A program made the translations under genes and the position numbers. DNA of 56,633 nucleotides, the filler included, from Circinaria calcarea (Eukaryota): the NCBI GenBank assembly GCA_051942165.1. It is 6 parts of 6 records of this genome, joined end to end, with 100 filler letters (N's around TTAATTAATTAA, not from the genome) between each part and the next. Parts side by side here need not be neighbours in the genome. Positions count along the whole stretch, not along the records: positions 9,501 to 18,882 come from JAVECS010000946.1; 5 more parts are not named here. One strand, given 5' to 3'. A model generated the notes under the pieces. The model was not told where the DNA came from. It ran no database searches and saw nothing but the letters and a program-made list of their open reading frames with translations. Below, piece after piece: positions 2,241-37,881 of this stretch. The first letter of the stretch is position 1. Every line of letters starts with the position of its first letter.

Positions 2241-2465
2241 ACGATGAATGAGACATCATGGAATAAGGACCTACAATTAACGGACGGCATGGTAGCCAGT
2301 TCTCACGATCACTAATTAAATCCACTTGAGTCTACACAGATCCCCGCCAATCCGAACAAATGGTACACAGGAGGAGCAGCAAAGTCCTTGTTATCGAGCC
2401 TTCACGTCATAGGTCTCCAGGGAACCCGGCTGATATTAGTATCTACCGGCTACTTCTCCCCTTAT

Positions 2466-2503
2466 CCCATTCCATTCCATCCCATCCCATCCCATTCCCA
2501 TCC
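2466..2503. repeat. Imperfect (CCCAT/CCATT)n microsatellite
   Basis: cccattccattccatcccatcccatcccattcccatcc read directly. Confidence 0.7.
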
Positions 2504-2943
2504 TAGCCCTGTCCTCTCCTCCCTCCTTTCACTTCCCTCATAGTTAAAAATCCTACACACCTACCTCGCAATTTATACCTCGGGGAGAAATGGTACATCA
2601 TAGTTGTCGAAGACTGGAGCGGGAGCGCCGATATTTCCCTTGAAAATTTTTTTTATTTCGCAAGGAGCGGCCTCAATGTGCCGTCCCTGTCCCCGGACGC
2701 CGAACGTTCAATTCGTGGGCTCTTATAGTAGTTGATATTAACTGTGATGTGATTCTATTAAGGGTTTTTGAAAAGTGGGTACCTGGGGCTAAAAATAAAT
2801 ATTTTCCAAGTTTCCATTTTCGTTACATGTACCGCTTGCTTTTTCGCAGATGGATTGATTTAATTTGATTCCATTTCGTGTCTTATTTATTTTAAACCTT
2901 GGAGATATGCCATTAGATCCTTATAGCAGCCGCGCGAGGTAAG

Positions 2944-4391
2944 CTTCCCAACCTTTCGCTAGTCACGTCGCGTCGCGTCAAAGCGACCCATCAAGCCCCG
3001 TCGTCGGCAGTGGAACCGCGGATTTTCAGCTAAAGGTTAGTAGTATAGTAAGAGAAACTTCAGGAGATAGCATGCTAATAGTTTCATATCCAGCCCTGAT
3101 GCAATACGAAAATACAACACTCAAATACATCGATCAGCTGGACCGCTGTATCGAAGCCGATGCCGTAGCACACAGATTTTCAGACGCTACCGATCTTTTC
3201 TACTGGCTCGGCTTCGATACGATGGGAGAGTTCGTTTTTAATAAATCTTTCGGTATGCTGCAAAACCAACAATGGCATTACATAATTCTGTTACTACAGC
3301 GTGCACTGTCTTTGCTGGGTCCATTTAGTCCGGCTCCATGGCTTGTGCAGGTGGGCTTCAAGCTATTGCCCCGAGTTGGTATCTTAAGAGACTGGTTTGA
3401 TATGGTTGCCTGGTGCGAGAAACAAATGCGGGAAAGAATTGAGGTAATTCCTCATGCCCTGTACTCATCCCACCGAGGTGTTCTGAAGTTTTTTTTCAGG
3501 CACCCAATGACAATATACGAGAGCCAGACGTGGCATATTATTTAATCGAAGACGCCAAGTTAAACGGATTCTCGAAAACAGATTGGATGTGGCTAAACGG
3601 AGACAGCCTACTGGTAATAGTAGCGGGAAGGTAAAAACTGTATATTATGTCCCCCCGGGTAAGCTTTTTTTTGGCTTACTTGTCATATATATTCGCAGCC
3701 AACCCACCGCGTCTGCCCTCGTGGGTATTTTCTACGAGCTGGCACGAAATCCCGATCACGCGCAAAAGATATACGATGAGGTTCAAAGCCTGGACGTGCA
3801 TGACGTGAAGCTTTTGTCGAAGCTTCCGCACCTCGATGGCTGTATCGCCGAGGCATTGCGCTTATATCCTGCCCTTCCTACCGGCGGTAACAGGAAAACA
3901 CCAGAGCATGGCGTTATGATCGGGGGAAGATATATCCCCCCGTATACGACGATTGTGGCTCCCCGCTTTTCGATCTCACGCCGTAAATGTTTTCTGGTGC
4001 CCATTGTAAATTACAAATCTAACAGATATTCTAGGAGAAGATTGCTTTGAGCGAGGTCGTGATTTCATTCCCGAGCGGTGGTATCAAAATCCAGAAATGG
4101 TCCGGAACAAGGCTGCTTACACTCCATTCGGCACAGGTTAGATCTCCCTCAATTTTTTTTTTCCGATAAGCTTTCATATTTGACTGGTTGTTTTTAGGTC
4201 ATCAAAGTTGTCTTGGACGCTTTCTGGCGTTGGACAATATGAGGCTCGTTACAGCAAGACTGGTTAAGAAGTATTATATAAGTTTTGCACCAGGCGAATC
4301 GGCCGATCGCGTAGTAAGCGACTTGAAAGATCAATTCACTTCGAACCCTGGCCGATTACGCCTAGTGTTCAGGCTGAGGGAGAAATTCTAG
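2944..4391 (+). pseudogene. Cytochrome P450, N-terminally truncated and frameshifted (probable pseudogene)
   Basis: Downstream exons splice in frame: RRRQWNRGFSAK|AL, FDTMGEFVF, I-helix AGSQPT, EALR (ExxR), PERW, heme motif PFGTGHQSCLG. Upstream, LPNLSLVTSR..KATH needs a 1-nt shift near 2992 to join KPRRRQW. No membrane-anchor exon is visible 5' of about 2940. Confidence 0.7.
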
Positions 4392-4558: not shown

Positions 4559-6772
4559 TTACGGCAACGCCATAAACACCGACAACATCTTCTGATAGTT
4601 CGGCGTCCCCAACCCCGTCACCGGGTCCCAGCCCGTCACAGCGGTAAAGCCTGGGGTGCCGCACCCCTGATTCCCACCGGACGTGATATCGTTCAGCATG
4701 CTTGGGTTGGCATAAAGCGTTGGATTCAAGAAGCCCACCGCGCTCTTTCCGCCGTTAACACGCTGTTCGTTGATGAGCGTGATGATGCTGCCAAGGGTCG
4801 GCGAGGAAGCCGAAGTGCCGTAGATCAGACTGATGGTGCCGTCCACAGCCACTACATAGTTGGCGCCGTTGGCGGAGATGTCCGGGTACCCGCGGACGGT
4901 CTGAGAATTGTTATACTGAGTGGCGGTGTAGGCGGGCTGGTGATTGGTAAAGTATGCTTTAACGGCCGAGGATTGGTACGAGGGCAAGGGAAAGACATTG
5001 CTGAACCCGCCACCGGAGTAAATGACGGTTTCGCAGGCTTCCTCGGGGGCTGTCACGCTGGCACCGGGAACGATTTGGGTGGCTCCCACCGATGTAACGT
5101 AGGGGCAGGTTCCAGGGAAGGAAGGGTTGAAGGTGCCTGTGGCACCGCTGTTGTAGGTACCGCCTGCGCATTTGGCTTTGGTGCAGCATTGACCACCATT
5201 GCCGGCAACGCCGTAATCGCCAGAGGAGTATAGAACACTGACACCAGCCTTCATGTACGGTAAGCATATAAATTTCAACCATCAGTTACTGTCAGACTAC
5301 TTACCAAGCCTAGTTTCATGTACTCGTAGCACTGACGTTGTTCATAGGCAGCACTCAAGTCCGCCTCATTATACCCGTATGAAGTGGAGATAACAGACGC
5401 AGGAGCATATCTGCCACAGTCCTTGCTTTTATACCCACCGGGGCTAGGATCAGGATAGGGAGAATCACTACCGTGGTGTCAGCCTATATCGTTGCTCTAC
5501 GGTAGTCTCACCAATCTACTTACTAGACTGCGCTGTCCCCACCCAAGTATGTACAGTAAGAAGCGTCCAATGCGTCGAGGAAGTTGTTAAAGGAAGCACT
5601 CTCAACCAGATCACCGGTTTGATACAGCGTTACCTTTTGAGGGTATACTAAAGGAGTTGTATATTTAGCCGCCAAAAAGGTCAAACAGTTGAAGTTCTCA
5701 AAATGGTAGTGCCGCTAGATGGACGTACCTAGTGCGATTGCATACTCCAAGTCAAGATCCGATTCTCCGTTGTTACTGAAGCTCTGGGTGGTTGTCTGAG
5801 CCACACCGCCATCGATAGAGGCGAAGATAGGTGCTGTTCCTGAGGGAATCTCACGGGCCAAGTTTGAGTAGAACAGGTTGAGGTCAGGCTGCAAAAATGC
5901 CTGTGGTGTGTATTCGACGATACCATATGAGGACTTGGCCAAAGTGCCGTTGGGAAAGTTGTACAGCGCGCGTAGACAGTCAGGCGTGATGTATTGGTTG
6001 CAATTTGCAAGGGTATACGAGACAAGGGGTGAAGCGGCATTGGGACTCGCAATCACTCTGCCCTTCTTCGGTTGCCAGGCGGTGTTGTCTGGGCTTCCAG
6101 GCTGCAAAAAAGAAGTATCACGCTTCACTTTGTCTTGACTCGGATCTGACACGATCTTGGTATCGAAATGGACTGTGGGCATAATCATGTCAACGTGCTG
6201 TCGAAGCGCCTGGGGAACGCTATATTCATCGCAGGCGAGATGGCCTTGACCAGATCCTTCATGTGCATAGTACTTGTATTTTGTATGCAACAGAGATTCG
6301 ACTTCGGCGATGCTGGCATTAAAGTGTAGCCAATTCCTTCCGTGGGTAAGAGACACGCGTGATGGGTCAATGCCAGATGCTGTGAGCCATGTTCGGATAG
6401 CATCAACCGATTCTGCAGAGGGTGCAAAGGTTTCGGCAATCTATCCATATGTCAGTAAAGGTAGGAGAGGGTACTATGATTCCAATCCAAGTATGGACAT
6501 GGCAATACCTGTTCGGCAGTCCAATGTTTTCCGTAGTTCTCGCTTGATGGGTCAGAGATATCCATTAGGAAATCATGACCCTTGTCGAGGTTATTTTGCG
6601 TAATGCCTATGCGAACGGGAAGTGTGATACGTCCGTCGGGCTTAATGCGGGCAACCTCAGACCAACTGGAAGAGCTACTACGCCTCTCGTGAACCACATG
6701 AGGAACGGAAGCGGGTAGAGCTACAGTACAAACAGCAAGGGCACCAATAACGGTAACGAAGGAGAACCTCAT
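4559..6772 (-). CDS. Secreted S53 serine-carboxyl peptidase (sedolisin / tripeptidyl-peptidase-like), multi-exon
   Basis: Signal peptide MRFSFVTVIGALAVCTVA, prodomain HVVHERR...ISDPSSENYGKHW, catalytic GESDLD, oxyanion SSGDYG, nucleophile GTSASSP, Ca-site WDPVTGLGTP. Confidence 0.95.
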
Positions 6773-9400
6773 CTTCAGGGTTGCAGCAGAATAGTCAAAG
6801 GCAAGGATGGCTGGGAGACAACGTTCTTCAAAGGGGAGATGGCCAGTTCATATATTCTTGCCCGGTAAGGTGAAGGACTGCCAGGAAGCTGCGGAGACCA
6901 CACCTGGAAGAGCCAAATCCTCCGTGGACACTGACTGCATCCTGGACAAGCGACCACCGCCCCATGGGATCTTGGGGAAGCAATAGGAAGGTCAGCAGGA
7001 AGTGTTGGAAGGTGTTGGAGCTTCGGCCGATCTCCACAAGCCAGTGCGGTAGGGCGATCGAATGGACATGTGTTCTGAAAGGAAGGAGGCCCGTTGAGTC
7101 AACCCCATGCGGGTGTACCTTGAGGGAAACGGGTAGGGAGATCCTTAGCAAACCAATCTCGAATAACGGGCATTCACACGAAAAAGGTGTCTTCACAAAC
7201 GAAGGGGTGGGATCAGATCAGGCACACAACGCAATCATTCGGTGGGTGGGTGATATTGACCGAAACGGTTAGTCAAAAATTGGGCTTGCTGCATGAATGA
7301 TAGTAAACGATGAATTAGGATTCGGGGACGGCGATGAGAAACGAAAAGTCCTTCCACTTTCACTTTGAAGCCCGACGCATAGATAGGCTCTGCAGGAAGA
7401 GGAAGCTGCCTCTTTCAGCTCATAGATGTTGTGATAACTCGGGGGTCGGCCAGAATAGATTACCGGAGCCGGAGAGGCGAGGCCGAAGATAAGACACTCG
7501 GTTCGCCTATCATCCTTTTGCTCTATGTTCCCGGGTTGGAGGGGCATTTCGGCTGGCTATCCGAGATCATGGACGGCTTTCCCTTGATCACAGTCATTGA
7601 ACGTTTGGGGGACTGTCCGATTGGTCGAGCTACTTGGGCCTGTGTTACCCCCCACCTTCCATCAGGTGTCTGCATCACAAGATGAAGGGAGGGCCAATCT
7701 CGTGGTCCGTAACTCGGTAGCATCGCATTTTGCAGGCTTTGGTCTGTATGGGGATGCAATGAACCATCATCAAGTGCGTCGGAAGATGGCTTTTTCCGCC
7801 GCTAGCGAGAGTTCGGACTCAGCTCCGTGTGGTGACTGACCTCGTTCTGGTGTCAATGACGTAACAGGTAAATGGAAGTAGAAGCGGGAGAGAGCGGGAG
7901 AGTGCGGGAGGTCCCGCTCGCTCGAAGCATCGCCCTGTGCCACCATCCTCCTGCGACTGTAATCGCCACCCTTCAGACCCTTCATGGACGTGTGCTGCCT
8001 CTCGCCGAGTGTCGTTAGGTTTCACCATAGAATTTGATATGTAGACCCGTGGGGTGTCTCGGATATTGTACGGGCTAGGGATTGGCCTCAGGGCCGTCTT
8101 TCACTAATGAATTCTCTCGGGCAGCATCTATCTTCTCCCACGCGTATCATTTCGGAATCCCAAGGGAGGACCAATTTCCCGGTATGGGGTTTCCTGGTAG
8201 CTGTCAAATAACCTCAACCACAGCGATTCAGGACATCCTCGAGTTCTATAGTCCGGATTTACTACAAGGATCCACGGACAGTGAGTGGTGCTTTCGGGAG
8301 TCTTTCCCCAAAAGTCATTTCACAGCGAACAGGAGCTTTAGAAGAACGGGTATGGGCGGAAAAGCTGGGAAAGGCTTGCAGCTTGAGCCTTTTTACAAGG
8401 ATCAATTAAAACTAACTATTACAGATAAGAGAACAATTTGAAGGCCTTGCAGAGTTTCTGACCATAGATGAAAAAAGCGACTCTAGCATTAGACCAAGAA
8501 TTAAAGAATGTTTCTAAAGCTACAATACAACCTCTAAGTCAAACGAAGATGACTGAGTCCACTGTTACGCAGGAACCTCTATCCGTTCTCGTACCGCAGA
8601 CCTGACAGAGAGTCCAGCATAAGCTTTACACCTTCATTTAGCCACCTCATACAATAGATCCTCGCAGGAATTGGACAGGTCCTCATTACGTAGCCTGGAG
8701 CCACAATGCCAAGGAAATCAAGAAAACCCTCCACCGCGCGGACATAAACAGTAAAGACGACACCGACTGGACCGCCCCCCACCTCGCCTGTACATCCGAG
8801 GACTCGTGTCGAAATGCGGACTCAGCATGTTCTCCGGCTTCGGCCGCCCACTCTACAACCGCTATAAATGGTATTCCGGGCGCGCTCCCTCCAGCCTAGG
8901 GAACAAAAACGAAATAACGCAGTTGCGGGGTGTAGGTTGAAATACTCCTTGCGCAGCGGGGCGGATCCGAACGCTAGCACGGGGAGGGGTGATTCCGCTG
9001 CACCCTTGCATTGAACGGCCAATAGCGGGTAAACCAAGACTGTGAGGGTGCTTGTGGAGGCGGGTGCGACTGTGTATACTGGTTCGGACCACTCACCATT
9101 TTGCTGAGCAAAGGATGGATCTGGGAGTAATCTCCCATCGGCAGTTCTTCTACGAGATCGTCTGGGACCGAGCGGGATGGAAGGGATCGAGGCGGATCAT
9201 AGGCGGGGTCAGTGAAGCAAGATGGATTGAAGGGGGAAGAGAGGGAATAAGAAAGCCAGAAAATCTTCAAGAAGGAGTAAAGTAGATTTTGGGATTTCCT
9301 TAACCTTTGTCAATTTTTCATAAAATTTAAATATAGAAAAGACTATCTATCGTACGGACTTCTTTCTACTCTTCTGGGAAAAAATAATCCTCATTCGAGT

Positions 9401-9500
9401 NNNNNNNNNNNNNNNNNNNNNNNNNNNNNNNNNNNNNNNNNNNNTTAATTAATTAANNNNNNNNNNNNNNNNNNNNNNNNNNNNNNNNNNNNNNNNNNNN
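9401..9500. other. Artificial contig-joining spacer (N44-TTAATTAATTAA-N44)
   Basis: Identical 100-nt spacer carrying stops in all six frames; occurs five times in the window. Confidence 0.98.
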
Positions 9501-10246
9501 CATCGGTTCCGTCACCTCAAACGGACACCCGTGAGGGTAGAACGGCTGGCGTTCGTCACTGGGGATCTTATCTTTGGCCACGTAGTGCTGCCCCATCACT
9601 TCCTTTTCCGCTTCCGCCTCGTACGCGTGAAAACAGGCCCAGTACACAAAAAACCCCTTGAGGCCGCGCTCGCGGAGGATCCGCATCGGCTCGACGATGG
9701 CTCTGTAGGCATTTAACACGTGGGCAAGATCCTCTTCCCGCGCGTTTTGCTCTTCGTAGATGGTGTAGCCGGGCCCGGCATCGAGAGAGAGGATGAGGTT
9801 CTCGAGTTGGAGATTCATGGCGATGAAGTTTATGAGGTCGGCCCACTCGGCTTTCCAGGGTTTGCCGGGCTTGGTCTAGTCTTCGATTTCTTGCGGCATG
9901 AACTTGGAAGTCGAGGGCACGGATATGTCTGACCAGAGATCCTTGAGCGCGGAGGAAGGCAAGGGATTGAGTGGGTGAGCCCCTGAGGACCAGCCGATTC
10001 CGGGAGAGGAGGATGAAGCGAGCGTCGTCGTCCCAAGGTCGGCCCCAGAAGAAGGAGATTGGTCGGTAAGGGGCGGCAGTTACAGTTGGAAGCATCGTGC
10101 CAGTTGATGTCGTGCTCAACCGGGTAGGTGATTTCGCCATCCTTGATGTGAATTCCAGGAATCGAGTCACTGTCGGAAGGGTGGGAAACCAGGTCCGTAT
10201 TGGCCAGGATTTGCTGACTGACTTCTCGAGGTAGTGGAGAAGGCAT
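9501..10246 (-). pseudogene. Hypothetical protein with F-box-like N-terminus; disrupted; runs off contig end
   Basis: MPSPLPREVSQQILANTDLV... continues through a frameshift near 10030 (PTNLLLLGPTL/DDARFILLSRNRLVL), a second frameshift near 9905 (HIRALDFQ/FMPQEIED) and an in-frame TAG at 9878-9876 (ED*TKPGKPWKAEWADLINFIAMNLQLENL). Confidence 0.65.
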
Positions 10247-10784
10247 TTATAGACTAGAAAATTGTGGAAACTAGGACCGAAAGATACATTTATCGAGACG
10301 GCTTGGAAGAAGATGCTGATTTGGAGGTGGTAAGATGCTTAGGAAGCAGTCTAGGATGGGATAATGTCTTGATAATATAACCAAAGAAATGGGAGATATG
10401 TGGCTGAGTATGAGAAGGGGTTTCCAGTCCGCTTTCGTCCATCTTTTCAACTTGCCGTGTTTGCCTAGTTACACTGTTAGAATTAACATTCTGTTAGAAT
10501 GTGCAATCATGGCACGGTGCAAATGCATTGACGTCAATATGAATTGGCAGTTATCCATATATTCTATGAAGAAAAAGTGACAATGTGGGAATAGCCTCTA
10601 TATACCATAATCGTAGAGACAGTAGTATTCGCGCAAATAGCATGGGTAATGGAACCCTAAACCCTGGATATTCCATATACGTACTATGTATGCGCTAAGC
10701 CATAATAGCTTGAATCAAATAATATGGGGCTGAATCGTGACACGGGCAACTAGCTTACCTAATAAAAATCCAGAACCCAGTTTA

Positions 10785-12253
10785 CTACCCCTTATGCGCT
10801 TCGTCCGGTTGAATCTCTTTGTGCACTTTAATCGCCCCATCGCACCTTTCCAAATCCTGCAGCTCCACCTGCTCTACTCTCTCAGACTTGCATTGCGCGC
10901 TCAGTGTCGAGGCCTCGTCGCTGATCTTGCGAAACGCGACCGTGCTCGCCATGGCGTCCTGGCCGTGTTTCGCCCGGTACGGATTCGAATGGTCAGAGCG
11001 TTTGTTACTCCCCTCGGAGCCAACGCTACTGGCAAGACTGAAGACGCTGCGGATGGAGCCGAAAAGGGATTCGGGGGACATGCCCTGGAAGATTGGGCGG
11101 AGGAGGGGGAGGCAGGCGCAGACAACGGAGAGACAGCATTCAGGGACGGTCCAGTAAAAAAGGGGCGCTTCGTCATCTGAGCCGAGACGATTGATGACAT
11201 TAGCTTTCCTGCGTTGATTATCGGGGAGTACCACTCTTATTGGGCTTCTGCTGACCCCAGCGAAGAAACGTACAGGTGAGATCGTGATTTTTAGCTATCA
11301 GGGCACCGACTGTGAAAAACCTATGGCATTTGCCGATGCTGGTCGCGACGACTCTATATTCAAGATCAGCTTCTGCTACTTGTAATCTTGACTGGGTCTA
11401 ATAGATGTAGATTCTTCCACGAGAGGCGTATGAGACGTACATGACACCGAGCATGAAAATGCCTAGGACCGCAATCTTTTGTTTCGCTGCCATTTGCAAG
11501 CGCCACACAATTGGCCAGGGCATGGCCAAGACAATAACATCGAGTATGATAGTCGAGACCGCATAGTAATAGTTCACAGAATCACCAATACAGTGCTGTC
11601 GTTTACTTTGCTGGACCTCCCAAAGTTCGCTTGGAGGTACGCACTGGACCAGGTAGGTAAGGGTAAAGCCAATTCCCCACAACCCGTTTAACGTATACAT
11701 GAGGTATACCGGAATGCGAAAGGCGCGGTTCGTAAAGATTCGAGCGTAGAATAAAAGAATCGAAAATCGAGCGAGACAAACGGCTACCGTCACGATTGTT
11801 TGCGAAGCATAAGCCATCTAGAATCGCAGATGTCTCGTCAGCTCTCAGATGAAGTCTTTGGGATTTTCAACGTACCTTTTCCAATGCGGTAAGCTTAGGG
11901 CCCATTTCTGCGAATCCCGCACGATCCAGGGGCATGTGTTTGCCCAGATTAGCATGGATGGCTCCTGGAAAGTAACTATCAGTAAGACTGCATCATAATG
12001 ATAACACGGAAGATAGCAACCATAAAGCACATTTGCAGCATTCCCTATTGCGAAAAGCTGTTGATATCAGTCAAAGTACTCTATAAGCGGACGGGGAAAG
12101 AATGCAATGTACCAAAGCTACCAGAATAATCCAGTCATCAGCAGCGTATAACGTCTTATTGATCCGTCTGGCATAGAAACGTGCAATCACTGAGAGTAGG
12201 GCAAGAATGGGAAATATAGTACACAAAGCTAGAGCAGTGGAATCTACACCCAT
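10785..12253 (-). CDS. Pth11-like (fungal rhodopsin-domain) integral membrane protein, no CFEM domain, multi-exon
   Basis: MGVDSTALALCTIFPILALLSVIARFYARR..AADDWIILVAL; ARFSILLFYARIF; QCVPPSELW; STIILDVIVLAMPWPIVWRLQM..KQKIAVLGIFMLG; WTVPECCLSVVCACLPLLRP. These are the hallmark motifs of the family. Confidence 0.92.
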
Positions 12254-13777
12254 AATAATTGATATTGAAGGCTTGATCAATAATGGGGAAACAACTTAGA
12301 AGGAAGGGGCATATTGTTAGGATTCTAAATGATATTCTGTTTGTATAACAGGATGAAGGACATGAATTGGAGCCTAATATACGAACGCGTATAAGCCAAT
12401 AGATGATGTATACTTTCTATGCAGGGAAGGGCATGGAAAGAACAGATACCGAGGCTCGCGTTCTCTAAGCCCATATCGTGCCACAAAGGTAATACAGAGT
12501 ACACCAATCAAGGTGTAAACTAGACAAGCCTAATTTGATGCAGTGTATGAATATACAGCGCAGCAGGGGGCAAGGACTGTGAACGGAGTCGTGGTAATGT
12601 AGATGCCGAAGGTTGTTAGGGGACGGAGCAGGCCGTATATAGGCAAGTAGCCGGGGGTCTTAGGCTATCCTGCGCCTCAGTGCTAACACTTGAAGGACCA
12701 ACCAATAACAAGGAGTTTCTTTCTTACATGCTGGCTGCAGCGGTGGTGATGTGGTGGTAAATCCGGACGGGAAGGTAATGGCTTTAGAAGAAACGCAACC
12801 AATCGGAAAGACCAGAGTTATCATCAGCTCTATAAGAAATCGGGTGCAGTAGGTCACACAGCATATTAAATGCTATCGTAGGAGATATATGGAACGGCTA
12901 TATTTCGACACTTTAAGCGAATAGCGCGAAATATGCATGAATGCAGTTCCAGACCCTAGTGGGGGCTACCTTAGCTCCAAATCTATAACATTCACACTAG
13001 GCCTAATAGATTCGTAGGGCGAAGTTCAATATCAATTGGGTGGTTTCGCTGTTTTCTGTCATGTCTATGCAGGGCGCGGAATAACAGTGCTTCCAGCTAG
13101 TTTATACCTTGCTTGTAAAAGGGCCCCAGCTTAGCCTTGCATAGCTCCATTGTGGTTGTACAATGGGAGCTATGATATGCCAGCGGGCCTTGTTTGGCTA
13201 AGACGAGGGTAGATTCTGGGCTACATAGCTGGTCTACCACCCGGGCGTTACGATATCAGGCTTATGTTATCAGCTGCCCGCTCCCGAGCATAACAAATTT
13301 CTAGCGAAACCTCCAAACAACTTTCCCCGGTGCATAATGCAGAGCTTGGCAAAGTAGGAACAGTGCCGCAGTGCGCAATTGCTGACCGTATGAATAAATT
13401 GCAGTACAAATCGTGAAGACGGTAGTAACTGATAGCCATGCTGGGCCATATTTGACCTTGGTTCGATTTCTTTACATTAACTAAAATAAATGCTAGTCGG
13501 CCCTTTACCGTGATTCCAAGGATTTCCGGTATATTTGACATGTCTATTTGGTTTCACTAGGTGTCATCGGGAAGAATTCAGAGTATTATATATACTATCG
13601 AAAATGAAGTAATATTTTCTTTTAATGCATCAGCGAAACAATACTCTATCCATATATCAATAATAATTTCTTCTTTGGCTTTGATGAAAAGATTTTCTAA
13701 ATCCCTATGTTCAGAACCTAGCTAATCAGAACCACCTCTGTATTGTATTATCTCCGAAACCAAAGTGCCCCAACTTT

Positions 13778-14010
13778 CTACTTTGGGTGTCTCCGGGTAT
13801 GCGCCCATCTCCAAATAGCAGCCTCGTCCTCATCAACAGTCGTGGTATTTGAGGTTGGGGTAGCTTCATCTGGTCAATAATAAGCATGGTTGGTTCTTTA
13901 CCGGGTTCAGTGCATCGTTAGAGTTGGTATTACATACCTCTCTTAATAATAACGGGCATGGTAGTTGCTTGCAAGAAGAAGAGCGAAAGCAGAATGAGCT
14001 TGGGATTCAT
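13778..14010 (-). CDS. Small secreted Kex2-type precursor-like peptide, 54 aa, 2 exons; candidate RiPP precursor
   Basis: Exon 1 14010-13938, intron 13937-13870 (GTATGT...CAG, 68 nt), exon 2 13869-13778 ending in TAG. Product: MNPKLILLSLFFLQATTMPVIIKR-DEATPTSNTTTVDEDEAAIWRWAHT-RR-HPK. Hydrophobic signal, KR and RR dibasic sites, acidic stretch before an aromatic motif. Lies divergent from a DUF3328 gene. Confidence 0.72.
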
Positions 14011-14885
14011 GGTGAAGCTAACGTCGAGCGATAACGAATTGAGATCAGTCAACCGAGATTTTTTTGGAATATGAAATTTCGAGGAAGTGTAGTAAAGGCT
14101 CGACTCGAATATGGGCAAGGTTGAAAGAAAGAACGAAACATGCTGGAAGCAAGGATCGGTTAATATACATCTTGACATCATGATATTCAACTTGTTTCGG
14201 ATTCTAATGACTCGTGCAACAGGACATGGGGCGACATCAAGGAACTAATTCGTCGTTTTTACATGCAGATCGCAACTCGGAGCACTCACAATTGAAGCTA
14301 CATGGAACGGCTTTTTCCAGGACCGCAACATATTCACCTATTGGTCTTGAATCTAGGCTTAAGGCTATGAAATCTGTCGCATGATTTTACTACCAGTCAT
14401 CTCAATTTACTACTGTGCCCTGACCCTTGAATTGAGCGATTTTTTAGCCATAGAAACAACCTTGCTCGGCGAAAACAGAGCATTAGTAGCCAAGGCCCAA
14501 TGGTTGGAGCAGGGACTTACCGGATATTGCCGTTGAACGGGAAGTTTTAAGGCACGGAAAGACCTGGGTGAGCAGTTAATTTGCATTAGGACCTTAATTT
14601 CTTAGACTAGAAATTGAGCTAGATTGCGGCATAGCAATCTCAGCCTCTCTATTTTTACAGCGATTACAGAAAATAAAAATATTTTACTCTTATTATTTTC
14701 TCTTCAGCTGTAAACATGGGTCAGAAACCCGATTTGAAAAAAGCGTCGAAGCAGGGATGAATTAAGAAGCGTTGGTGTGCCTCCTAGTTTTAGCTGCAAA
14801 GTTACTCCACTATTAGCTAATACCTTCTGAAAGCCGCTTTGCTCATTGTTCGTGTCCGGGGTTCCTATCTAGGTTCCAACTCGTC

Positions 14886-15713
14886 ATGTTTATGAGATAT
14901 TGGCACTCTGGACGTCATGTTTCCAAGATAAGGCGGTGCAATGCCTTTTCACCACTACCTTCCACCGAACTCGATTTCCATCAAGAAGAGCGTCCTCGGC
15001 TTTCTATTTATGGACGTATATTAATGCTTGCCTTCATGCTCTGTGTCGCTTCTGGCATTGCGGGGTTCATTGCTGGAAGATATTCTAGAGGCGGCAACTC
15101 ACTAAGTAAAGTCAAGCTTTTTCACATGCCGAGTTCAAGCTGGTTGATATTTTGTAGCTCCTGTTGGATCCATTCTTACCACTTTCGAACCCAATGCGTC
15201 ATTCTCAGCGACGACATCTGTAGACTCAGACAAGGCATGGCAGGAGCTTTCCCAGTGTAAGAACTATAAGGCCAGATATATAGTTCTAATAAATAGCTGA
15301 TTATTTGATATAGTAGGGCATGGCTTTATACTTCATCCTTTAATCGCATCTAATATTTCTGGATTCGCCGTTTTTCATCAACTGCATTGTCTGGTACTTA
15401 GCTCTTCGGATCTTACCTCAAACAACTACTGACTGAAACGAAGAATCGTCTCCGTCACGGCTACGACGCTGTCCTAAACCGGCCTGGTACTGATACATCG
15501 CTAGTGGGCCATCAGGAGCATCAAGGAGGGACTTCTCACATTACACATTGCTTTGACTATCTTCGGCAGTCTTTGCAGTGCGCGGCAGATACCAATGTTG
15601 AAACTGTTGATTTCGCGCTAGAAGGCGTGACTGGATGGCGTGTGAAGCGTGTATGTAGGGACTTCGAAGCGGTAAAGAAGTTTGCGGAAGAGTGGAGACC
15701 TAAAAACCACTAG
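14886..15713 (+). CDS. DUF3328 / UstYa-family oxidase no. 1, 4 exons
   Basis: N-terminal TM (ILMLAFMLCVASGIAGFIAG), DKAWQEL..GHGFI, first motif AVFHQLHCL (15376-15390), second motif HITHCFDYLRQSLQCAAD (15537-15551), then G-W...RVCRDFEAV. GT-AG introns keep the frame. Confidence 0.93.
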
Positions 15714-15801
15714 TTTCAACGGAAGATATGTCGTGGAGGAGGTGCCTTCAACAGCGCATCAAGTTCGAGGATAGAAACCCTTATCATAGAGGCTGTCTAT
15801 G

Positions 15802-16987
15802 CTAAGCGAGAAGATGATCAGAATTAATGCCTTCCAACACATCTTCAAACCCTTTCACGTCTCCTTCGGTCACCCCCAATCTCAGATCGTGGTCGATTAA
15901 CTCCCAGTCCTGCACCTCAGGTCGATCCGCCAGAGTATCTAGATTATAAAGATGCACTTTCCTGTCGCCATTCCATGCATCTAGCTTTTCCCAGTTTACA
16001 CACACTTGCTTGTTTATCGAGATTGGTCTAGGCTGGGAGCCAAACCATTTGAATGTGGTGATGGTTTGCGATCCGTGGCACATGGCGTTGAGGCGGAAAT
16101 ACTCGAGGCAATGGTCTGAATGTTGTATAAGAGCCCGCTTCATAAGGACTTGCGATATGCACGATTCATATGGAAGGATACTTACCAATGTGTCGCTTGC
16201 GCTCTTCCAACATAATGCCATCAAGTGCGGGCCAGTAATGATTTCGGTGAATCCATTTTCGAATCCACTTCTACGGAGGTAACATCAGCTGGCGATTCAG
16301 TAACGGGGGACAATCGTGCGCTATGAGAACACGGGGCCAATACGTACAACGCAGTGCAACTCATGATATACACCAAGCTGTGCAACATAGCCAGAGCCAT
16401 CTTTCAGAGCAAGGGATGTCCGATTGAGATTTCGGAGTTCTTCTCCCGAGAGACGAATATGGACATCTAAAGGTAAGCAGAGAGGTGTTAGCTAGGACGA
16501 GTGGAATTGCGTAAGGTGGTGCCTAGGGAGAGTCTAACTCTCTAAGAGATCAGACCAGGCTTTATCATGTTCTGGACGTGGATCCCCAGCATATGGGTTA
16601 CCATCGTAAACTGATTCCAGGGTCTTGACTTCATACTCAATCACGTCTTGAGCTGGCACTAGGAGCACGTTAACTAGATCTCAAAGCTGGGCCCACCTTC
16701 AACTTGCGGTATATCCCAAATTCTGGGTCTTGTCTCTGACCGTGGACCCAAAACAATCCAATTGTGGTAAGCATGATAATGTAAAGCAAGGCTATACAAG
16801 CATGAATCACGATTGGCCTCACCCACAAGCAAGAAAGGGAGTGTTTAGAAATATCGTTCTCCTCGACTTCGGTTTTACAATGATGAGGTAGAAACGGCTG
16901 GTTCACGGCGTCTTTCTCCACTTCGAGAATGGACGCAGGAATAGGCTGATAGGACATCTTACTTCCGAATAAAGATTTTATAAACAT
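15802..16987 (-). CDS. DUF3328 / UstYa-family oxidase no. 2, 5 exons (alternative start at 16957)
   Basis: TM (VIHACIALLYIIMLTTIGLFWV), PAQDVIEYE, YAGDPRPEHDKAWSDLL, GYVAQLGVYHELHCV (16365-16351), RHI|DHCLEYFRLNAMCHG (HIDHC split by an intron), QVCVNWEKLDAW. First intron is GC-AG. Confidence 0.93.
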
Positions 16988-17685
16988 GCAATGAGGCTCT
17001 TCAATCTCCTAGGAGAGTCAAGTATACGAGAAGGATGTTGGGTATGCGTGACTCGAAGTACAACTATACAATGGGAATAAAGTGTTATAACCATAGTTGA
17101 TGACTCTTAGAAACAAATAATAGTGAAGGGGAGTTGATGAAAATGTAATATTTCGGACATAGTTTCATGTAATGGCAAGTATTACAGCGTATCAAAGCTA
17201 AGCCCATTTTTCCCGATGGTAAACCGCAACCGTTTCTACATGCCGTTTTTGTGTGTGACTGTCCGATGCTTGAAGTCTACGCCGTCCTCATACTTGATAT
17301 TCCAGAGCTGCCTTGTGTCTCCTCCGGTCTTTCTTGTCTCAAGTCCAGTGCCCGCAGCTTGCGTTGGCAGCCGAGTGAGTCGGATCTGGCTCAAGGAGGC
17401 ACAGTATGCATAGATTCCTTGCTTCTGCTTTTGGGTGGGAATGTTGCACTGCATGCGCGCATTTTCGGGCAGACACGGTGAGACTTCGGACTATGCACGG
17501 TACATCCCATGGGGCCATTGTTTAGCTGATTTTGTCGTTGCCGGCGAACAGCCGAACCATTTGTCTATTCCAGCCTTTTCAACGCTTTGTGCCTCTTGGT
17601 ACTTATGCGCGGCATCGTCTCCCAATCCCGAGGCACCAGTTGCTAAAGTTTCTTATCAGGAGCATAGTCAAGCGATCTCCTCAGG

Positions 17686-18882
17686 ATGGGGCAAGTCTCA
17701 GGTCTAACAAGTTCATTAATTGTACTCTCAATCTCCTATTACATATTTAGGCGTTTCAGAACAAGAAGGGCACGCTTAAGGCGAATGAAAGAGCTTGGAT
17801 GCAAATCGCCCCCCAGTTACCCTCACATAGATCCCATTCTTGGCCTTGATCTCTTCTTGGAAAATATCAACAACTTGAAGAAGCAGCGTTTCCTTGACAG
17901 CTTCAAAGCTCGCTTTGATAAGTATGGCCAAACATTTGGTGCAATTAGCATGGGCAGAACTACAATCTACACCAATGACCCCAAAAACTATCAGGCCGTC
18001 CATGCCTTAAAGTTCGCCGACTACGGTGTCCAGCCTCTGAGACGAGAGCCGACGCTTCCATTCCTTGGAGAAGGTGTGTTTACGATGGATGGGCCTTTCT
18101 GGGAACATTCTAGAGCTATAATTCGTCCTACTTTTACACGATCTAATGTTGCCAATTTGCCCGCCTTCGAAGTTCATTTTCGGAAGTTCCTTGATTTGAT
18201 CCCTGGAAATGGAGTAACAGTTGACCTGGAGCCTCTACTCTACAGACTGGTCAGTCCTCTTCTACGCTTTATTAAGATGCTGACTCAGATATCTCGCAAA
18301 GTTCGTCGATACATCGACGGAGTTCCTCTTCGGAGAATCCATGAACACTTTATCACCAGCAGCCTCACTCCAGACTCAGCAGTTTCTTGACGCTTTTCAT
18401 TATGCACAGCGTGGTATGGGCACCCGCATTCAGATGGGCAGATTTAGATTTCTACACCAGGACCGAAAATGGCGAGAAGCTATCAAGACCACACATGCGT
18501 TTGCCGACAAGTATGTAGACATAGCACTTGCGTACCGAGAAGAATATATTACCACAAAGAAAAGAAACGAGCCCGACAAAGATACTCTAATTGAAGACGA
18601 TGACGTGAATAACCGCTATGTTCTCTTGCAGGAAATCGCCAAAGAAACAGATAACCGCGTCGAACTTCGTAGCCAAGTCCTCCATGTCTTTCTGGCCGGC
18701 CACGACTCGACCGCCATAACTATCGGAAACGCCATCTTTCATCTTTGTCGGTACCCGGACAAATGGGAGAAGCTGCGCGCCGAAGTGATTGCCATGGGCG
18801 ATGCTCCACTTACGTTCGAGCATCTGAAGGAACTGCACTATCTACAACACATTGTGAAAGAAAGTAAAGCATCCCCCTATTG
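17686..18882 (+). CDS. Cytochrome P450, CYP52-clan-like; 3' end cut off by contig end
   Basis: N-terminal TM, PHIDPILGLD, PFLGEGVFTMDGPFWEHSRAIIRPTF, FVDTSTEFLFGES (after an intron), I-helix HVFLAGHDSTA, start of K-helix LQHIVKE. The heme motif lies beyond the contig end. Confidence 0.9.
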
Positions 18883-18982
18883 NNNNNNNNNNNNNNNNNN
18901 NNNNNNNNNNNNNNNNNNNNNNNNNNTTAATTAATTAANNNNNNNNNNNNNNNNNNNNNNNNNNNNNNNNNNNNNNNNNNNN
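18883..18982. other. Artificial contig-joining spacer
   Basis: N-run/TTAATTAATTAA/N-run. Confidence 0.98.
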
Positions 18983-19710
18983 GGGTTTTGGTGTGCTAAT
19001 GCCCGGGGGAAAAAGGGAAAGGGGGGGGGAGAGGCCTTACGCTGCCGAGGAGGTTGCGAGTGGCGCAGCGCCGAGGATGCTCGAGAAAAGGCTGGGGGTT
19101 GCCATGATAAGAGAGGGCTTTGGGGGGGAGATTATACCGTAGGATTTTTTTCCTGCCCGGATGACAGTGATGCACCTATATGAATGCGTGCGGTGAGAAT
19201 CGCCGACATTGAACTCCTCTCCCCAGCCAAGATGCTGCTCCATAGCCCTGCATCATGCAGTCAAGTCGGCAGGAAGCCATACTCGGGATCAAATGCTACT
19301 GCTGACACAAATGTCAAATATCTCCAAACGATGAGATAAAAAGTCCCCGAATCTCCTCTGCCTTCTCGATCAGGCCCCAACCTGAACCTCCTCACCGATG
19401 CATAATGCAAATAACCATGAAAAGAAGCCGAAGATGCAAAAGGGACGCAAGTGTTTCTCTGGGGTGGAATTTCGGCCGAATGTTCGGACACACCACCCCC
19501 CCACCCCTTTTTTTTCCCTCCGAAACTGACCACTACCCCGAAACTGACCTCCTCCCAAGAAAGGTCACCTCCGCCACCGAAACACCAGGCAAATTCCCCC
19601 TTTTTCCCTTTGGAGAGAAAGCTCCAAGTCGAGCATAATGTACATGTCTCTCGATGGAGTTTCTGGGGAACCTTCGACCCTCTTTTCTCCTGAATCCCCA
19701 CCCGTCCACC

Positions 19711-20982
19711 ATGTTTGGCTTCTTCCACTCGGAATTCTTTGACTTCGAATTGACCCGCCTGCTGGGGACGGCCCCCTTTGGCGGATGCGACATTGCCGAG
19801 TTCCTCGAGGCCGTGGGCCAGATCAAGAGGCACGATGCCGAGAGCTGGTACCGCGCTTGGAAGGAACAGGGAGAGCGGGTCGAGGAGATTGCCCGGGAGG
19901 CAGCCCGCGACGGCCATCCGATCTTTGCCCGAAGGGCCTTTTTGCGCTCTTCCAACTACTTTCGCGCCAGCCCTTATATGCTTCCGAGTTCGGACGAACG
20001 GGTCCTGCAGTGCGCGGAGAGGGCGGTGCGAGACTTCAGACAGGCGATCCCCTTCATGGAAGGGAAAGTGCTGGTGCTGGAGATCCCATACCAGGGCGGC
20101 ATTACCCTGCCCGGTTATCTCTACCTCCCGCCACCGGCTAAGCGCGTACGGGGTAAGATTCCGGTGATTGTCAACTGCGGAGGCGCGGATTCGACCCAGG
20201 AGGAGCTCTATTTCATGTATGGCGTTTCGGGCACGGAACTCGGCTACGCGGTGCTCACGTTCGAGGGACCGGGGCAGGGTCTGGTGCTGAAGAGAGACAA
20301 GGTCACCATGAGACCGGACTATGAGGTTGTGACCGGCCGGGTGTTGGATCATCTTTTCCATCTGGCCACCGTTTACCCGGACCTCGAGCTTGACCTGGAC
20401 CGCATCGCAGTGGCGGGAGCGTCGATGGGTGCCTATTACGCCCTGAGGGCGGCGACGGATCCCCGGATCAAGGCCTGTGTCGCCGTCGATCCCTTTTACA
20501 GTCTCTGGAGCCTGGCTCTCACCCGACTGCCTCAGTGGTACGCCCATCTCTGGCAGAGCGGCTGGATCTCCGAGGCATTCTTCAACTGGTCCGTCCGCAC
20601 GCACATGAGCGTCGACTTCCCCAGTCGCTGGGAATTCTCCTTGGGGTCGTGGATGATGGGGAGATCCACCCCCGGGGACACGCTCCGACGCTTCCAGGAC
20701 TTCTCCCTCGACATCGCCCAGGACGGCAAGATCTTGGACCGCGTCGACTGTCCCGTGCTGGTGACCGGTGCCAAACGCACCATCTATGCGTCGGCGGAGA
20801 CGAGTACGATTCAGATTTACAACTCACTCGTGCGGGTCCCGGAAAGCTGTAAGGAGGTCTGGATCCCGAACGAGACGGGCGGTGGCGGGCTGACGGCAAA
20901 GGTGGGAGCGTGGGGTCTTTTGTCGCAGCGGACTTTTCAATTCCTGGACAAGCATTTCAAAACGGAGCGTGAAAAACCTTAG
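19711..20982 (+). CDS. Intronless alpha/beta-fold hydrolase (2,6-dihydroxypseudooxynicotine-hydrolase-like family)
   Basis: MFGFFHSEFFDFELTRLLG..PFGGCD, RSSNYFRAS, LPGYLY, GGADSTQEELY, FEGPGQG, nucleophile elbow GASMG (20416-20430). ATG 19711 preferred (CCACC context); the ORF extends to 19654. Confidence 0.88.
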   Translation: MFGFFHSEFFDFELTRLLGTAPFGGCDIAEFLEAVGQIKRHDAESWYRAWKEQGERVEEIAREAARDGHPIFARRAFLRSSNYFRASPYMLPSSDERVLQCAERAVRDFRQAIPFMEGKVLVLEIPYQGGITLPGYLYLPPPAKRVRGKIPVIVNCGGADSTQEELYFMYGVSGTELGYAVLTFEGPGQGLVLKRDKVTMRPDYEVVTGRVLDHLFHLATVYPDLELDLDRIAVAGASMGAYYALRAATDPRIKACVAVDPFYSLWSLALTRLPQWYAHLWQSGWISEAFFNWSVRTHMSVDFPSRWEFSLGSWMMGRSTPGDTLRRFQDFSLDIAQDGKILDRVDCPVLVTGAKRTIYASAETSTIQIYNSLVRVPESCKEVWIPNETGGGGLTAKVGAWGLLSQRTFQFLDKHFKTEREKP

Positions 20983-28350: not shown

Positions 28351-28450
28351 NNNNNNNNNNNNNNNNNNNNNNNNNNNNNNNNNNNNNNNNNNNNTTAATT
28401 AATTAANNNNNNNNNNNNNNNNNNNNNNNNNNNNNNNNNNNNNNNNNNNN
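28351..28450. other. Artificial contig-joining spacer
   Basis: N-run/TTAATTAATTAA/N-run. Confidence 0.98.
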
Positions 28451-37781: not shown

Positions 37782-37881
37782 NNNNNNNNNNNNNNNNNNN
37801 NNNNNNNNNNNNNNNNNNNNNNNNNTTAATTAATTAANNNNNNNNNNNNNNNNNNNNNNNNNNNNNNNNNNNNNNNNNNNN
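37782..37881. other. Artificial contig-joining spacer
   Basis: N-run/TTAATTAATTAA/N-run. Confidence 0.98.

What the first reader, a model, noticed from the sequence alone, without database searches (positions are those of the whole stretch)
13778..18882. Candidate fungal RiPP (dikaritin-type) cluster: precursor + two DUF3328 oxidases + P450
Seen in sequence: within about 5 kb on one contig lie a small secreted dibasic-site peptide (minus), DUF3328 no. 1 (plus, divergent from it), DUF3328 no. 2 (minus, convergent, stops only 88 bp apart) and a P450 (plus, divergent from no. 2). Both DUF3328 genes keep intact twin HxxHC motifs (HQLHC/HITHC and HELHC/HIDHC). Established: a secreted Kex2-processed precursor beside UstYa/DUF3328 oxidases defines the ustiloxin, phomopsin and asperipin-2a pathways, and the ustiloxin cluster also has two UstY proteins and a P450. 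Inference: this locus makes a cyclised peptide whose core matches none of those (YAIG, YVIPID, FYYTGY). The contig ends inside the P450, so more genes may follow.
Basis: partly seen in the sequence, partly recalled or inferred. Interest (0 to 1): 0.92.

Follow-up and report, generated by a model that had tools for sequence, protein, structure and literature searches.

The report
Orphan fungal UstYa oxidase pair locus
Two genuine fungal copper-oxidase genes of the kind that cross-link peptide toxins sit beside a P450 gene on a short broken contig, but the tiny secreted-peptide gene proposed as their substrate cannot be verified, so this is an ordinary orphan locus with an interesting but unproven twist.

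Summary
The three enzyme genes are real. UstYa-1 (14886-15713, +, 222 aa) and UstYa-2 (16957-15802, -, 284 aa) match Pfam PF11807. Each has an N-terminal membrane helix and twin HxxHC motifs, and their stop codons are 88 bp apart. A P450 (17686-18882, +) is cut by the contig end.

The window is six unrelated contigs joined by N spacers, and the finding lies on the 9.4-kb contig 9501-18882.

The 54-aa "precursor" exists only as a two-exon model. It has a signal-like start, one KR site, no repeats, no Tyr and no detectable relatives. Its IWRW core depends on a splice acceptor that fits the local intron geometry less well than an alternative acceptor, which gives an unrelated 80-aa product. Codon scoring does not decide between them.

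The visible contig holds no repeat-type (KEP) precursor, tyrosinase, methyltransferase, transporter or peptidase. Twin HxxHC motifs also occur in DUF3328 enzymes of non-ribosomal pathways (CctR, ApnU), so they do not mark a RiPP. The P450 belongs to a conserved "alkane-hydroxylase"-named group, 70% identical to a lichen-fungus protein.

Comparative and expression tests were not possible with the collections at hand. Verdict: an orphan UstYa locus with an unidentified substrate gene. I put the single-core RiPP reading at about 0.2. Orphan UstY clusters without repeated precursors are already described in lichen fungi.

The parts
13778..14010 (-). Candidate small secreted-peptide ORF, unverified. 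Model A: exons 14010-13938 and 13869-13778, 54 aa, with a signal-like N-terminus, a KR site at residues 23-24, then a 30-aa tail holding IWRW, an RR site and HPK. Model B uses the same exon 1 spliced to 13895-13726 and gives 80 aa without IWRW.
   Evidence: Models built from coordinates. ATG in a CACC context and GTATGT donor right after KR. No Pfam hit, no relatives and no paralogue. Codon score 0.073 per codon for model A and -0.032 for model B, against 0.171 +/- 0.11 for coding and -0.017 +/- 0.10 for intergenic windows.
14011..14885 (.). 875-bp divergent intergenic region between the candidate ORF and UstYa-1.
   Evidence: Coordinates. No k-mer shared with the UstYa-2/P450 intergenic region beyond the shuffle expectation. 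No Pfam domain in its ORFs.
14886..15713 (+). UstYa-1: UstYa/DUF3328 gene with 4 exons, 222 aa. Membrane helix at about residues 45-63; HQLHC at 128 and HITHC at 165.
   Evidence: PF11807 at 7e-15 on exon 4. HMMER gave 734 relatives at E<=1e-3. 41% identity over residues 11-218 to P0005. Family-conserved W, GF, HxxHCL..R, HxxHC..Y.R....C.AD...E, C and W columns are all present.
15802..16957 (-). UstYa-2: divergent UstYa/DUF3328 gene with 5 exons, 284 aa. Membrane helix at about residues 49-67; HELHC at 147 and HIDHC at 179; acidic C-terminal extension of about 60 aa.
   Evidence: PF11807 on exons 2, 3 and 5. Atlas nearest clusters are all UstYa, score 0.93. Model; introns 1 and 2 have weak donors GTCAGA and GTTAGA. 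It lacks the GF and C.AD columns of the UstYa-1 group.
17686..18882 (+). Cytochrome P450, 5' part only (381 codons; about 140 residues including the haem-binding loop are missing), with an N-terminal membrane anchor.
   Evidence: PF00067 on both exons. 70% identity over 357 aa to a Varicellaria rhodocarpa protein and 52-60% to proteins named alkane hydroxylase or n-alkane-inducible P450.
18883..18982 (.). Artificial spacer (N44-TTAATTAATTAA-N44) marking the end of the contig.

Best explanation
This is a truncated, orphan UstYa-type locus.

Shown: two real, distantly related UstYa/DUF3328 genes lie tail to tail. Each encodes a protein with a short N-terminal region, one membrane helix, and a C-terminal domain carrying the HxxHC(x)nHxxHC motif plus the conserved downstream cysteines.

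Inferred from the characterised family members CctR, ApnU and AprY: they are disulfide-linked dimeric, binuclear-copper, O2-dependent enzymes. Their catalytic domain faces the lumen of the secretory pathway, where they hydroxylate, halogenate or cross-link unactivated C-H bonds of a peptide-derived metabolite.

My reading: the gene that supplies their substrate is not identified on the visible 9.4 kb. It most likely lies beyond the contig end, either as a repeat-type Kex2-processed precursor or as an NRPS or PKS-NRPS. The 54-aa ORF is only a candidate. The neighbouring P450 belongs to a broadly conserved group named as alkane hydroxylases, and it may or may not act in the same pathway.
For: - Pfam PF11807 matches on both genes.
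- Membrane helix, twin HxxHC and conserved Cys columns.
- Full-length alignment of the UstYa-1 model to annotated fungal homologues.
- 734 relatives of UstYa-1 exon 4 at E<=1e-3, none above 62% identity to a cluster representative.
- No tandem repeat and no repeat- or KR-rich ORF anywhere on the contig.
- None of the 36 intergenic ORFs of 40 aa or more that I picked by hand (12.3-14.8 kb and 17.0-17.7 kb) has a Pfam match at or above its curated cut-off at E<=0.1; two sub-threshold hits (E 0.015 and 0.051) were seen.
- The contig ends inside the P450.
- Mechanism of the family: CctR is a membrane-associated homodimer with two Cu per monomer bound at HxxHC(x)nHxxHC and needs O2 and electrons. 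ApnU (halogenase) and AprY (cyclase) behave likewise (PMC12435403, passages read).
- Base rate: only 31.8% of 9399 DUF3328 genes lie within 15 genes of an annotated Kex2-processed repeat protein (PMC7329392, passages).
- Lichen-fungus UstY clusters likewise lack repeated precursors (PMC12048977, passages).
Against: - A signal-peptide-like ORF with a KR site and a consensus GTATGT donor sits exactly where precursors are most often found: next to, and divergent from, a DUF3328 gene. By the crude screen such an ORF is expected only about 0.07-0.09 times by chance in this intergenic DNA.
- The 2.6-kb gap between the rhodopsin-domain gene and UstYa-1 is long if it holds no gene.
- Nothing beyond the contig end can be seen, so the claim that the substrate gene lies off the contig is untested.
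Confidence: 0.5

Rival explanations
1. One reading: a single-core RiPP cluster. The 54-aa peptide enters the ER and loses its signal peptide. The two lumenal UstYa copper oxidases oxidise or cross-link it around the I-W-R-W-A-H stretch. Kex2 cuts it at KR and RR in the Golgi, and the P450 may tailor the product.
For: - The ORF has a hydrophobic signal-like start, KR at residues 23-24, an ATG in a CACC context and a GTATGT donor directly after KR.
- It is divergent from UstYa-1 across 875 bp.
- DUF3328 gene counts peak at the position next to precursor genes (PMC7329392).
- Its codon score (0.073) is above the intergenic mean and above model B.
- A single core has been proposed, but not shown, for lichen UstY clusters (PMC12048977).
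- Copper-dependent plant BURP cyclases cross-link Trp in cores such as QLLVWRGH and QLLVWKW (PMC12056006). The DUF3328 copper site is said to resemble the BURP site (PMC12435403).
Against: - No repeats and no Tyr. The precursors described in the passages I read (ustiloxin, asperipin-2a, phomopsin, epichloecyclin) are repeat proteins.
- The model-A acceptor is 48 nt from the only CTAAC. In 7 of 8 confirmed local introns a YTRAY motif lies 10-24 nt from the acceptor. An AAAG acceptor 22 nt from the CTAAC gives another frame without IWRW.
- 20% of open intergenic 29-codon windows score as high as model A.
- No relatives, paralogues or Pfam family were found.
- No tyrosinase, methyltransferase, transporter or peptidase is on the contig.
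- Twin HxxHC is not specific to RiPPs.
Confidence: 0.2
2. There is no biosynthetic cluster. The two UstYa genes are stand-alone family members with an unknown substrate. The P450 is a conserved fatty-acid or alkane hydroxylase-type enzyme that happens to be the neighbour, and the small ORF arose by chance.
For: - About two thirds of DUF3328 genes are not near a known precursor (PMC7329392).
- The P450 has relatives at 52-70% identity across lichen-forming, Leotiomycete and Sordariomycete fungi, some named alkane hydroxylase. UstYa-1's best full-length relative is only 41% identical, so the neighbours do not look as if they evolved together.
- The upstream genes are a fungal rhodopsin-domain membrane protein and an unknown protein, neither typical of a cluster.
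- No promoter motif is shared between the two divergent intergenic regions.
Against: - Two distant UstYa paralogues placed tail to tail 88 bp apart recall the UstYa/UstYb pairs of real clusters.
- The identity comparison is weak, because the HMMER library lists only 50%-cluster representatives.
- Every DUF3328 enzyme described in the papers I read acts in a natural-product pathway.
Confidence: 0.25

Closest known systems
Ustiloxin B cluster (ustA, ustYa, ustYb, ustQ, ustM, a P450, FMOs, ustD) of Aspergillus flavus and Ustilaginoidea virens
   Same: Two mutually homologous DUF3328 genes together with a P450, and a signal-peptide-bearing ORF with a KR site beside them (PMC6514808 and PMC12048977 passages).
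   Different: UstA carries 16 YAIG repeats, each flanked by ED and KR. Here there are no repeats and no Tyr, and no tyrosinase, methyltransferase, FMO or PLP enzyme is visible. The contig is truncated.
Asperipin-2a cluster (aprA, aprY, aprT, aprR)
   Same: A minimal cluster in which a DUF3328 oxidase alone makes the macrocycles. AprY is reported as copper- and O2-dependent and dimeric.
   Different: The FYYTGY core is Tyr-based. No transporter or reductase is seen here, and this locus has two DUF3328 genes rather than one.
Orphan UstY-type RiPP-like clusters of Lecanoromycetes (Clans R1 and R2, PMC12048977)
   Same: DUF3328 signature genes with twin HxxHC. Signal-peptide and Kex2-site ORFs are present but without repeated motifs, and a single core has been hypothesised. 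The P450's best relative here comes from a lichen-forming fungus.
   Different: R1 has a tyrosinase and a methyltransferase and no P450. R2 has GNAT acetyltransferases. Neither matches the gene set seen here.
DUF3328 tailoring enzymes outside RiPP pathways: CctR (cyclochlorotine hydroxylase) and ApnU (atpenin B halogenase)
   Same: The same family, the same twin HxxHC copper site, and membrane anchoring.
   Different: Those enzymes sit beside NRPS or polyketide-type core genes. No such gene is visible on this contig or on the five other contigs of the window.
Plant BURP-domain copper cyclases (moroidin and stephanotic-acid burpitides)
   Same: This is an analogy of mechanism only. They are copper enzymes that cross-link Trp to other residues in short cores such as QLLVWRGH and QLLVWKW. 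The candidate core here holds I-W-R-W-A-H.
   Different: They are an unrelated protein family from plants. Their cores start with QL and are repeated. No chemistry is known for the present peptide.

Membership tests
UstYa / DUF3328 (Pfam PF11807) | Profile match above Pfam's gathering score | tested here: met
   UstYa-1 exon 4 scores 55.9 bits against a cut-off of 25. UstYa-2 exons 2 and 5 score 27.8 and 41.6 bits, and exon 3 scores 24.9 bits, just under the cut-off. Exons were scanned singly because spliced proteins could not be submitted.
UstYa / DUF3328 (Pfam PF11807) | HxxHC(x)nHxxHC copper-binding motif | tested here: met
   HQLHC and HITHC in UstYa-1; HELHC and HIDHC in UstYa-2. The second motif of UstYa-2 depends on the chosen intron-4 acceptor.
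UstYa / DUF3328 (Pfam PF11807) | Single N-terminal membrane helix, with the catalytic domain and conserved cysteines C-terminal to it | tested here: met
   The best 19-aa hydropathy windows are residues 45-63 (2.45) and 49-67 (2.33). Two Cys follow the second motif in both proteins, in conserved alignment columns.
UstYa / DUF3328 (Pfam PF11807) | Copper and O2 dependence, and a disulfide-linked dimer | not testable with these tools
   Known for CctR, ApnU and AprY (PMC12435403). Spliced proteins could not be sent to the folding tools.
Dikaritin-type RiPP cluster (Kex2-processed repeat precursor plus DUF3328) | Precursor with a signal peptide and repeated core peptides flanked by Kex2 sites | tested here: not met
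   No tandem repeat on the contig. No six-frame ORF has repeated 4-mers together with KR sites. The candidate has one KR, one RR and no repeat.
Dikaritin-type RiPP cluster (Kex2-processed repeat precursor plus DUF3328) | Tyr in the core, for the Tyr-O ether cross-link | tested here: not met
   There are 0 Tyr in the 54-aa model. 65.6% of DUF3328-associated repeats contain Tyr, so Tyr is not obligatory (PMC7329392).
Dikaritin-type RiPP cluster (Kex2-processed repeat precursor plus DUF3328) | One or more DUF3328 genes next to the precursor | tested here: met
   Two are present, the nearer 875 bp from the candidate ORF.
Dikaritin-type RiPP cluster (Kex2-processed repeat precursor plus DUF3328) | Tyrosinase, methyltransferase, and a transporter or peptidase (criteria of Ding et al. 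as quoted in PMC12048977) | tested here: inconclusive
   None was found on the 9.4-kb contig. However, the contig ends inside the P450, and later definitions drop these genes.
Dikaritin-type RiPP cluster (Kex2-processed repeat precursor plus DUF3328) | The precursor gene is transcribed, spliced as modelled and conserved | tested here: inconclusive
   Splice geometry and codon score are ambiguous. No relatives were found. Exon 2 is too short for the large protein search.
Cytochrome P450 (PF00067), group named alkane hydroxylase | P450 profile match; haem-binding Cys loop | tested here: inconclusive
   The profile matches both exons and covers profile positions 12-331 of 462. The haem loop lies beyond the contig end. 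The 'alkane hydroxylase' names are database labels on relatives, not tested functions.

The most novel reading that the evidence does not exclude
The small ORF is a genuine single-core, tyrosine-free precursor. The two UstYa copper oxidases would install Trp-centred cross-links (Trp to His, or Trp to an aliphatic carbon) in its I-W-R-W-A-H stretch. That would be a fungal counterpart of the plant BURP-made moroidin and glechomanin scaffolds. It would be a UstYa-dependent RiPP class that repeat-based genome mining cannot find.
Probability: 0.12. Interest if true: 0.8.

Novelty: new member of a known kind. Interest (0 to 1): 0.35.

Why it matters
DUF3328/UstYa enzymes have recently been shown to be binuclear copper oxygenases that functionalise inert C-H bonds. 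Most of the thousands of family members have no known substrate.

If the small ORF were a true precursor, it would show that these enzymes also act on single-copy, Tyr-free cores. Current mining for fungal RiPPs relies on Kex2-flanked repeats and would miss a whole class of such peptides.

As it stands, the locus adds one more orphan UstYa pair, from a poorly sampled fungal lineage, to a list that is already described. It also shows how strongly such calls depend on a single splice-site choice.

Tried and rejected
- **Whole genome.** None is held for this window.
- **Public sequencing runs for 13500-18882.** None was listed, and no RNA holder was listed.
- **Earlier scan notes.** There are none for this genome or for this sequence.
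- **Metagenome contig scan with UstYa-1 exon 4.** Of 176 pattern matches, 2 encode relatives. Both are distant (39% and 33% identity), on 1.2-kb and 6.7-kb contigs, and neither holds a similar peptide. No orthologous locus was found for a synteny test.
- **UstYa-2 exon 5 in the word-indexed protein search (longer proteins).** 33 candidates, 0 significant.
- **Peptide exon 2 (31 aa with two intron-derived residues).** It was too short for that search. The overlapping 63-aa ORF of the model-B frame found no candidate. The Atlas gave only sub-threshold look-alikes for the peptide, at 0.85.
- **Locus tags of UstYa-1 relatives (20 proteins looked up) and of P450 relatives.** None showed adjacency between a UstYa gene and a P450 gene in another fungus.
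- **Shared promoter words between the two divergent intergenic regions.** 2 shared 10-mers against 1.35 expected. Rejected.
- **Pfam on hand-picked intergenic ORFs.** The 36 ORFs came from the list of ORFs of 40 aa or more, between 12.3-14.8 kb and 17.0-17.7 kb. Only two sub-threshold chance-level hits were found.
- **Spliced proteins.** They could not be given to the family, search, fold or complex tools. Family scans were therefore done exon by exon, and no structure or complex was predicted.
- **Argument considered and rejected.** The idea was that the P450 is 70% identical to a lichen-fungus protein while UstYa-1 has no close relative, so the genes are unlinked. I kept it only as weak evidence, because the HMMER library shows only 50%-cluster representatives.

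Full report
**What the window is.** The 56,633-base window is not one locus. It is six contigs of 9.3-9.4 kb, sorted by length and joined by N44-TTAATTAATTAA-N44 spacers. The finding lies on the second contig, 9501-18882. The other five contigs carry ordinary fungal genes: a short-chain dehydrogenase, another P450, a sedolisin-type protease, an FrsA-like esterase, a Zn2Cys6 regulator, a p-aminobenzoate/anthranilate-synthase-like gene and an HPP membrane protein. They hold no NRPS or PKS, and they are not linked to the finding.

**The enzyme genes are real.** I built gene models from coordinates.
- UstYa-1 (plus strand, four exons, 14886-15713) encodes 222 aa, with HQLHC at residue 128 and HITHC at 165.
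- UstYa-2 (minus strand, five exons, 16957-15802) encodes 284 aa, with HELHC at 147 and HIDHC at 179.

The second motif of UstYa-2 reads HIDHC only with the intron-4 acceptor at 16116. The uninterrupted ORF reads HSDHC.

Spliced proteins could not be submitted to the family tools, so Pfam was run exon by exon. PF11807 (UstYa) matched exon 4 of UstYa-1 at 7e-15. It matched exons 2, 3 and 5 of UstYa-2 at 2.7e-6, 2.1e-5 and 1.7e-10. PF00067 matched both P450 exons.

An exhaustive HMMER search with UstYa-1 exon 4 found 734 relatives at E<=1e-3 and 94 at E<=1e-10. None was more than 62% identical, and the best hit is a 67-aa fragment. The named relatives are hypothetical or "Tat pathway signal sequence" proteins from scattered ascomycetes: Eremomyces, Stromatinia, Sclerotinia, Aspergillus, Pyrenophora, Xylaria, Metarhizium and the lichen fungus Lambiella.

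Inside the script box, the spliced UstYa-1 model aligned over residues 11-218 with a 224-aa Stromatinia protein at 41% identity, which validates the exon structure. An alignment with 12 relatives shows that UstYa-1 has every conserved column of its group. UstYa-2 keeps the two motifs and the two downstream cysteines. It lacks other group columns and carries an acidic C-terminal tail of about 60 residues. The two are therefore distant paralogues, as UstYa and UstYb are.

Both have one strongly hydrophobic N-terminal helix.

**The P450.** The spliced 5' part (381 codons) is 70% identical over 357 residues to a protein of the lichen-forming fungus Varicellaria rhodocarpa. It is 52-60% identical to Leotiomycete and Sordariomycete proteins, several labelled "alkane hydroxylase" or "n-alkane-inducible". 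About 140 residues, including the haem loop, lie beyond the contig end. This gene is much better conserved than its UstYa neighbours. That is weak evidence that it is not a dedicated partner, because the HMMER library lists only 50%-cluster representatives.

**The peptide ORF.** The 54-aa model exists as described. It has an ATG at 14010 in a CACC context, a hydrophobic signal-like start, KR at residues 23-24 and a GTATGT donor immediately after KR. A 68-nt intron follows, and then a 30-residue tail with an NTT sequon, I-W-R-W-A-H-T, RR and HPK. Everything beyond that is uncertain:

1. *Chance.* A crude screen for "Met, hydrophobic stretch, dibasic site" found 9 raw hits at 5 places in the real window. 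Shuffles gave 1.42 +/- 1.30 per 56 kb. From that rate I calculate that roughly 0.07-0.09 such ORFs are expected by chance in the intergenic DNA around the UstYa genes.
2. *Splicing.* The eight confirmed introns of the locus are 50-82 nt long, and 7 of 8 have a YTRAY branch motif 10-24 nt before the acceptor. The candidate intron's only CTAAC is 48 nt before the model-A CAG acceptor but 22 nt before an AAAG acceptor. Two of the eight confirmed introns (UstYa-1 intron 3 and the P450 intron) also end in AAG. That alternative gives a 42-nt intron and an 80-aa product in another frame with no IWRW. The CTAAC is also only about 20 nt from the donor, closer than the branch motif of any confirmed intron that has one, so neither model is comfortable.
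3. *Coding potential.* Model A exon 2 scores 0.073 per codon and model B scores -0.032. Coding windows average 0.171 +/- 0.11 and open intergenic windows -0.017 +/- 0.10. 20% of intergenic windows score at least as high as model A.
4. *Relatives.* No Pfam family, no paralogue in the window or in the two metagenome loci, nothing in the Atlas above lead level and no relative of the overlapping model-B ORF. Exon 2 was too short for the large protein search.
5. *Architecture.* No tandem repeat or repeat-bearing ORF lies anywhere on the contig, and the model has no Tyr.

**Comparison with what is known.** From the passages I read:
- UstA has 16 YAIG repeats flanked by ED and KR. The asperipin, phomopsin and epichloecyclin precursors are also repeat proteins. 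ustQ, ustYa and ustYb are needed for the first macrocycle, and the full ustiloxin pathway adds a P450, FMOs and a PLP enzyme (PMC6514808; PMC12048977).
- Across 1461 fungal strains, 22% of Kex2-processed repeat proteins have a DUF3328 gene within 15 genes. DUF3328 genes peak at the adjacent position, but only 31.8% of 9399 DUF3328 genes are near such a precursor (PMC7329392).
- DUF3328 enzymes are now known as membrane-associated, dimeric, binuclear-copper, O2-dependent enzymes whose copper sits in the HxxHC(x)nHxxHC motif. They include a hydroxylase for an NRPS product (CctR), a halogenase (ApnU) and a RiPP cyclase (AprY) (PMC12435403). ApnU belongs to the atpenin B cluster and has both motifs (PMC12625553). 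Intact twin motifs therefore say "active enzyme", not "RiPP".
- UstY-type clusters with signal-peptide and Kex2-site ORFs but no repeated cores have already been reported across lichen-forming fungi, with a single core offered as one explanation (PMC12048977). A note from this scan on another genome describes a similar unproven single-core candidate.

**Weighing.** I take adjacent pairs of DUF3328 genes to be more often biosynthetic than single ones. The ORF sits in the favoured position, and a 2.6-kb gene-free gap would be long for a fungus. Against that:
- the passages I read describe only repeat precursors;
- chance or an unrelated small gene can explain the ORF;
- its defining core depends on the less-favoured acceptor;
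- half of the neighbourhood is unseen.

I put an orphan UstYa biosynthetic locus whose substrate gene lies off the contig at about 0.5. I put "no cluster at all" at about 0.25.

**Most likely mechanism, with steps marked.**
- Shown: two membrane-anchored UstYa proteins with intact copper-site motifs and a P450 with an N-terminal anchor.
- Inferred from CctR, ApnU and AprY: each UstYa forms a disulfide-linked dimer in the lumen of the secretory pathway, binds two coppers per monomer, and uses O2 and electrons to abstract hydrogen from an unactivated C-H bond of a peptide-type substrate. The result is hydroxylation, halogenation or a cross-link.
- Not known: the substrate, the order of action and whether the P450 takes part.

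**Most novel reading not excluded.** The small ORF could be a true single-core, Tyr-free precursor cross-linked through its Trp and His residues. This would be analogous to plant BURP copper cyclases, which act on QLLVWRGH and QLLVWKW cores (PMC12056006). I put this at about 0.12.

**What could not be done.**
- No genome is held for the window.
- No sequencing run was listed.
- The one metagenome scan gave no orthologous locus.
- The contig look-up for database proteins is closed.
- Spliced proteins could not be sent to the folding or complex tools.

The decisive tests (transcript structure, contig extension, synteny in related fungi and co-expression) all remain open.

Noticed in passing
window 9401-9500, 18883-18982, 28351-28450, 37782-37881, 47212-47311: The window is a concatenation of six contigs (9400, 9382, 9368, 9331, 9330 and 9322 bases, in descending order) joined by N44-TTAATTAATTAA-N44 spacers. 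Features on different pieces are not physically linked.
   Followed up: yes
window 10788-12295 (-): A fungal rhodopsin-domain (PF20684) integral membrane protein gene lies upstream of the finding, in at least three exons (1.5e-32 on the middle one). A 125-aa and a 138-aa ORF at 9501-10246 (-) have no Pfam family.
   Followed up: partly
window 12296-13777: About 1.5 kb of AT-rich DNA (GC about 0.43) lies between the rhodopsin-domain gene start and the candidate peptide ORF. No recognisable gene or domain was found in any frame.
   Followed up: partly
window 18983-19060: The third contig opens with an odd G-rich, low-complexity stretch (runs of G and A) before a FrsA-like esterase gene (19639-20979, +). 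This piece has a higher GC content (0.55 at 20-22 kb) than the rest of the window.
   Followed up: no
window 50693-52933 (+) and 54323-55573 (-): Long open frames of 747 aa and 417 aa have no Pfam match even at E 0.01. The region 54-56 kb has a strong AT skew (-0.24).
   Followed up: partly
window 1230-4047 (+) and 5718-6847 (-): The first contig carries a short-chain dehydrogenase, a second P450 and a sedolisin (pro-kumamolisin activation domain) gene close together. This could be a small tailoring-gene group, but it is unlinked to the finding.
   Followed up: no
window 30415-33071 (+): A fused glutamine amidotransferase, anthranilate-synthase-N and chorismate-binding gene, of the p-aminobenzoate synthase type. 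It is an ordinary primary-metabolism gene.
   Followed up: no
window 16659-16740 and 16467-16538 (-): Introns 1 and 2 of UstYa-2 need unusual donors (GTCAGA, GTTAGA) to keep the frame. The P450 intron uses GTCAGT, so GTNAG-type donors may be common in this fungus.
   Followed up: partly
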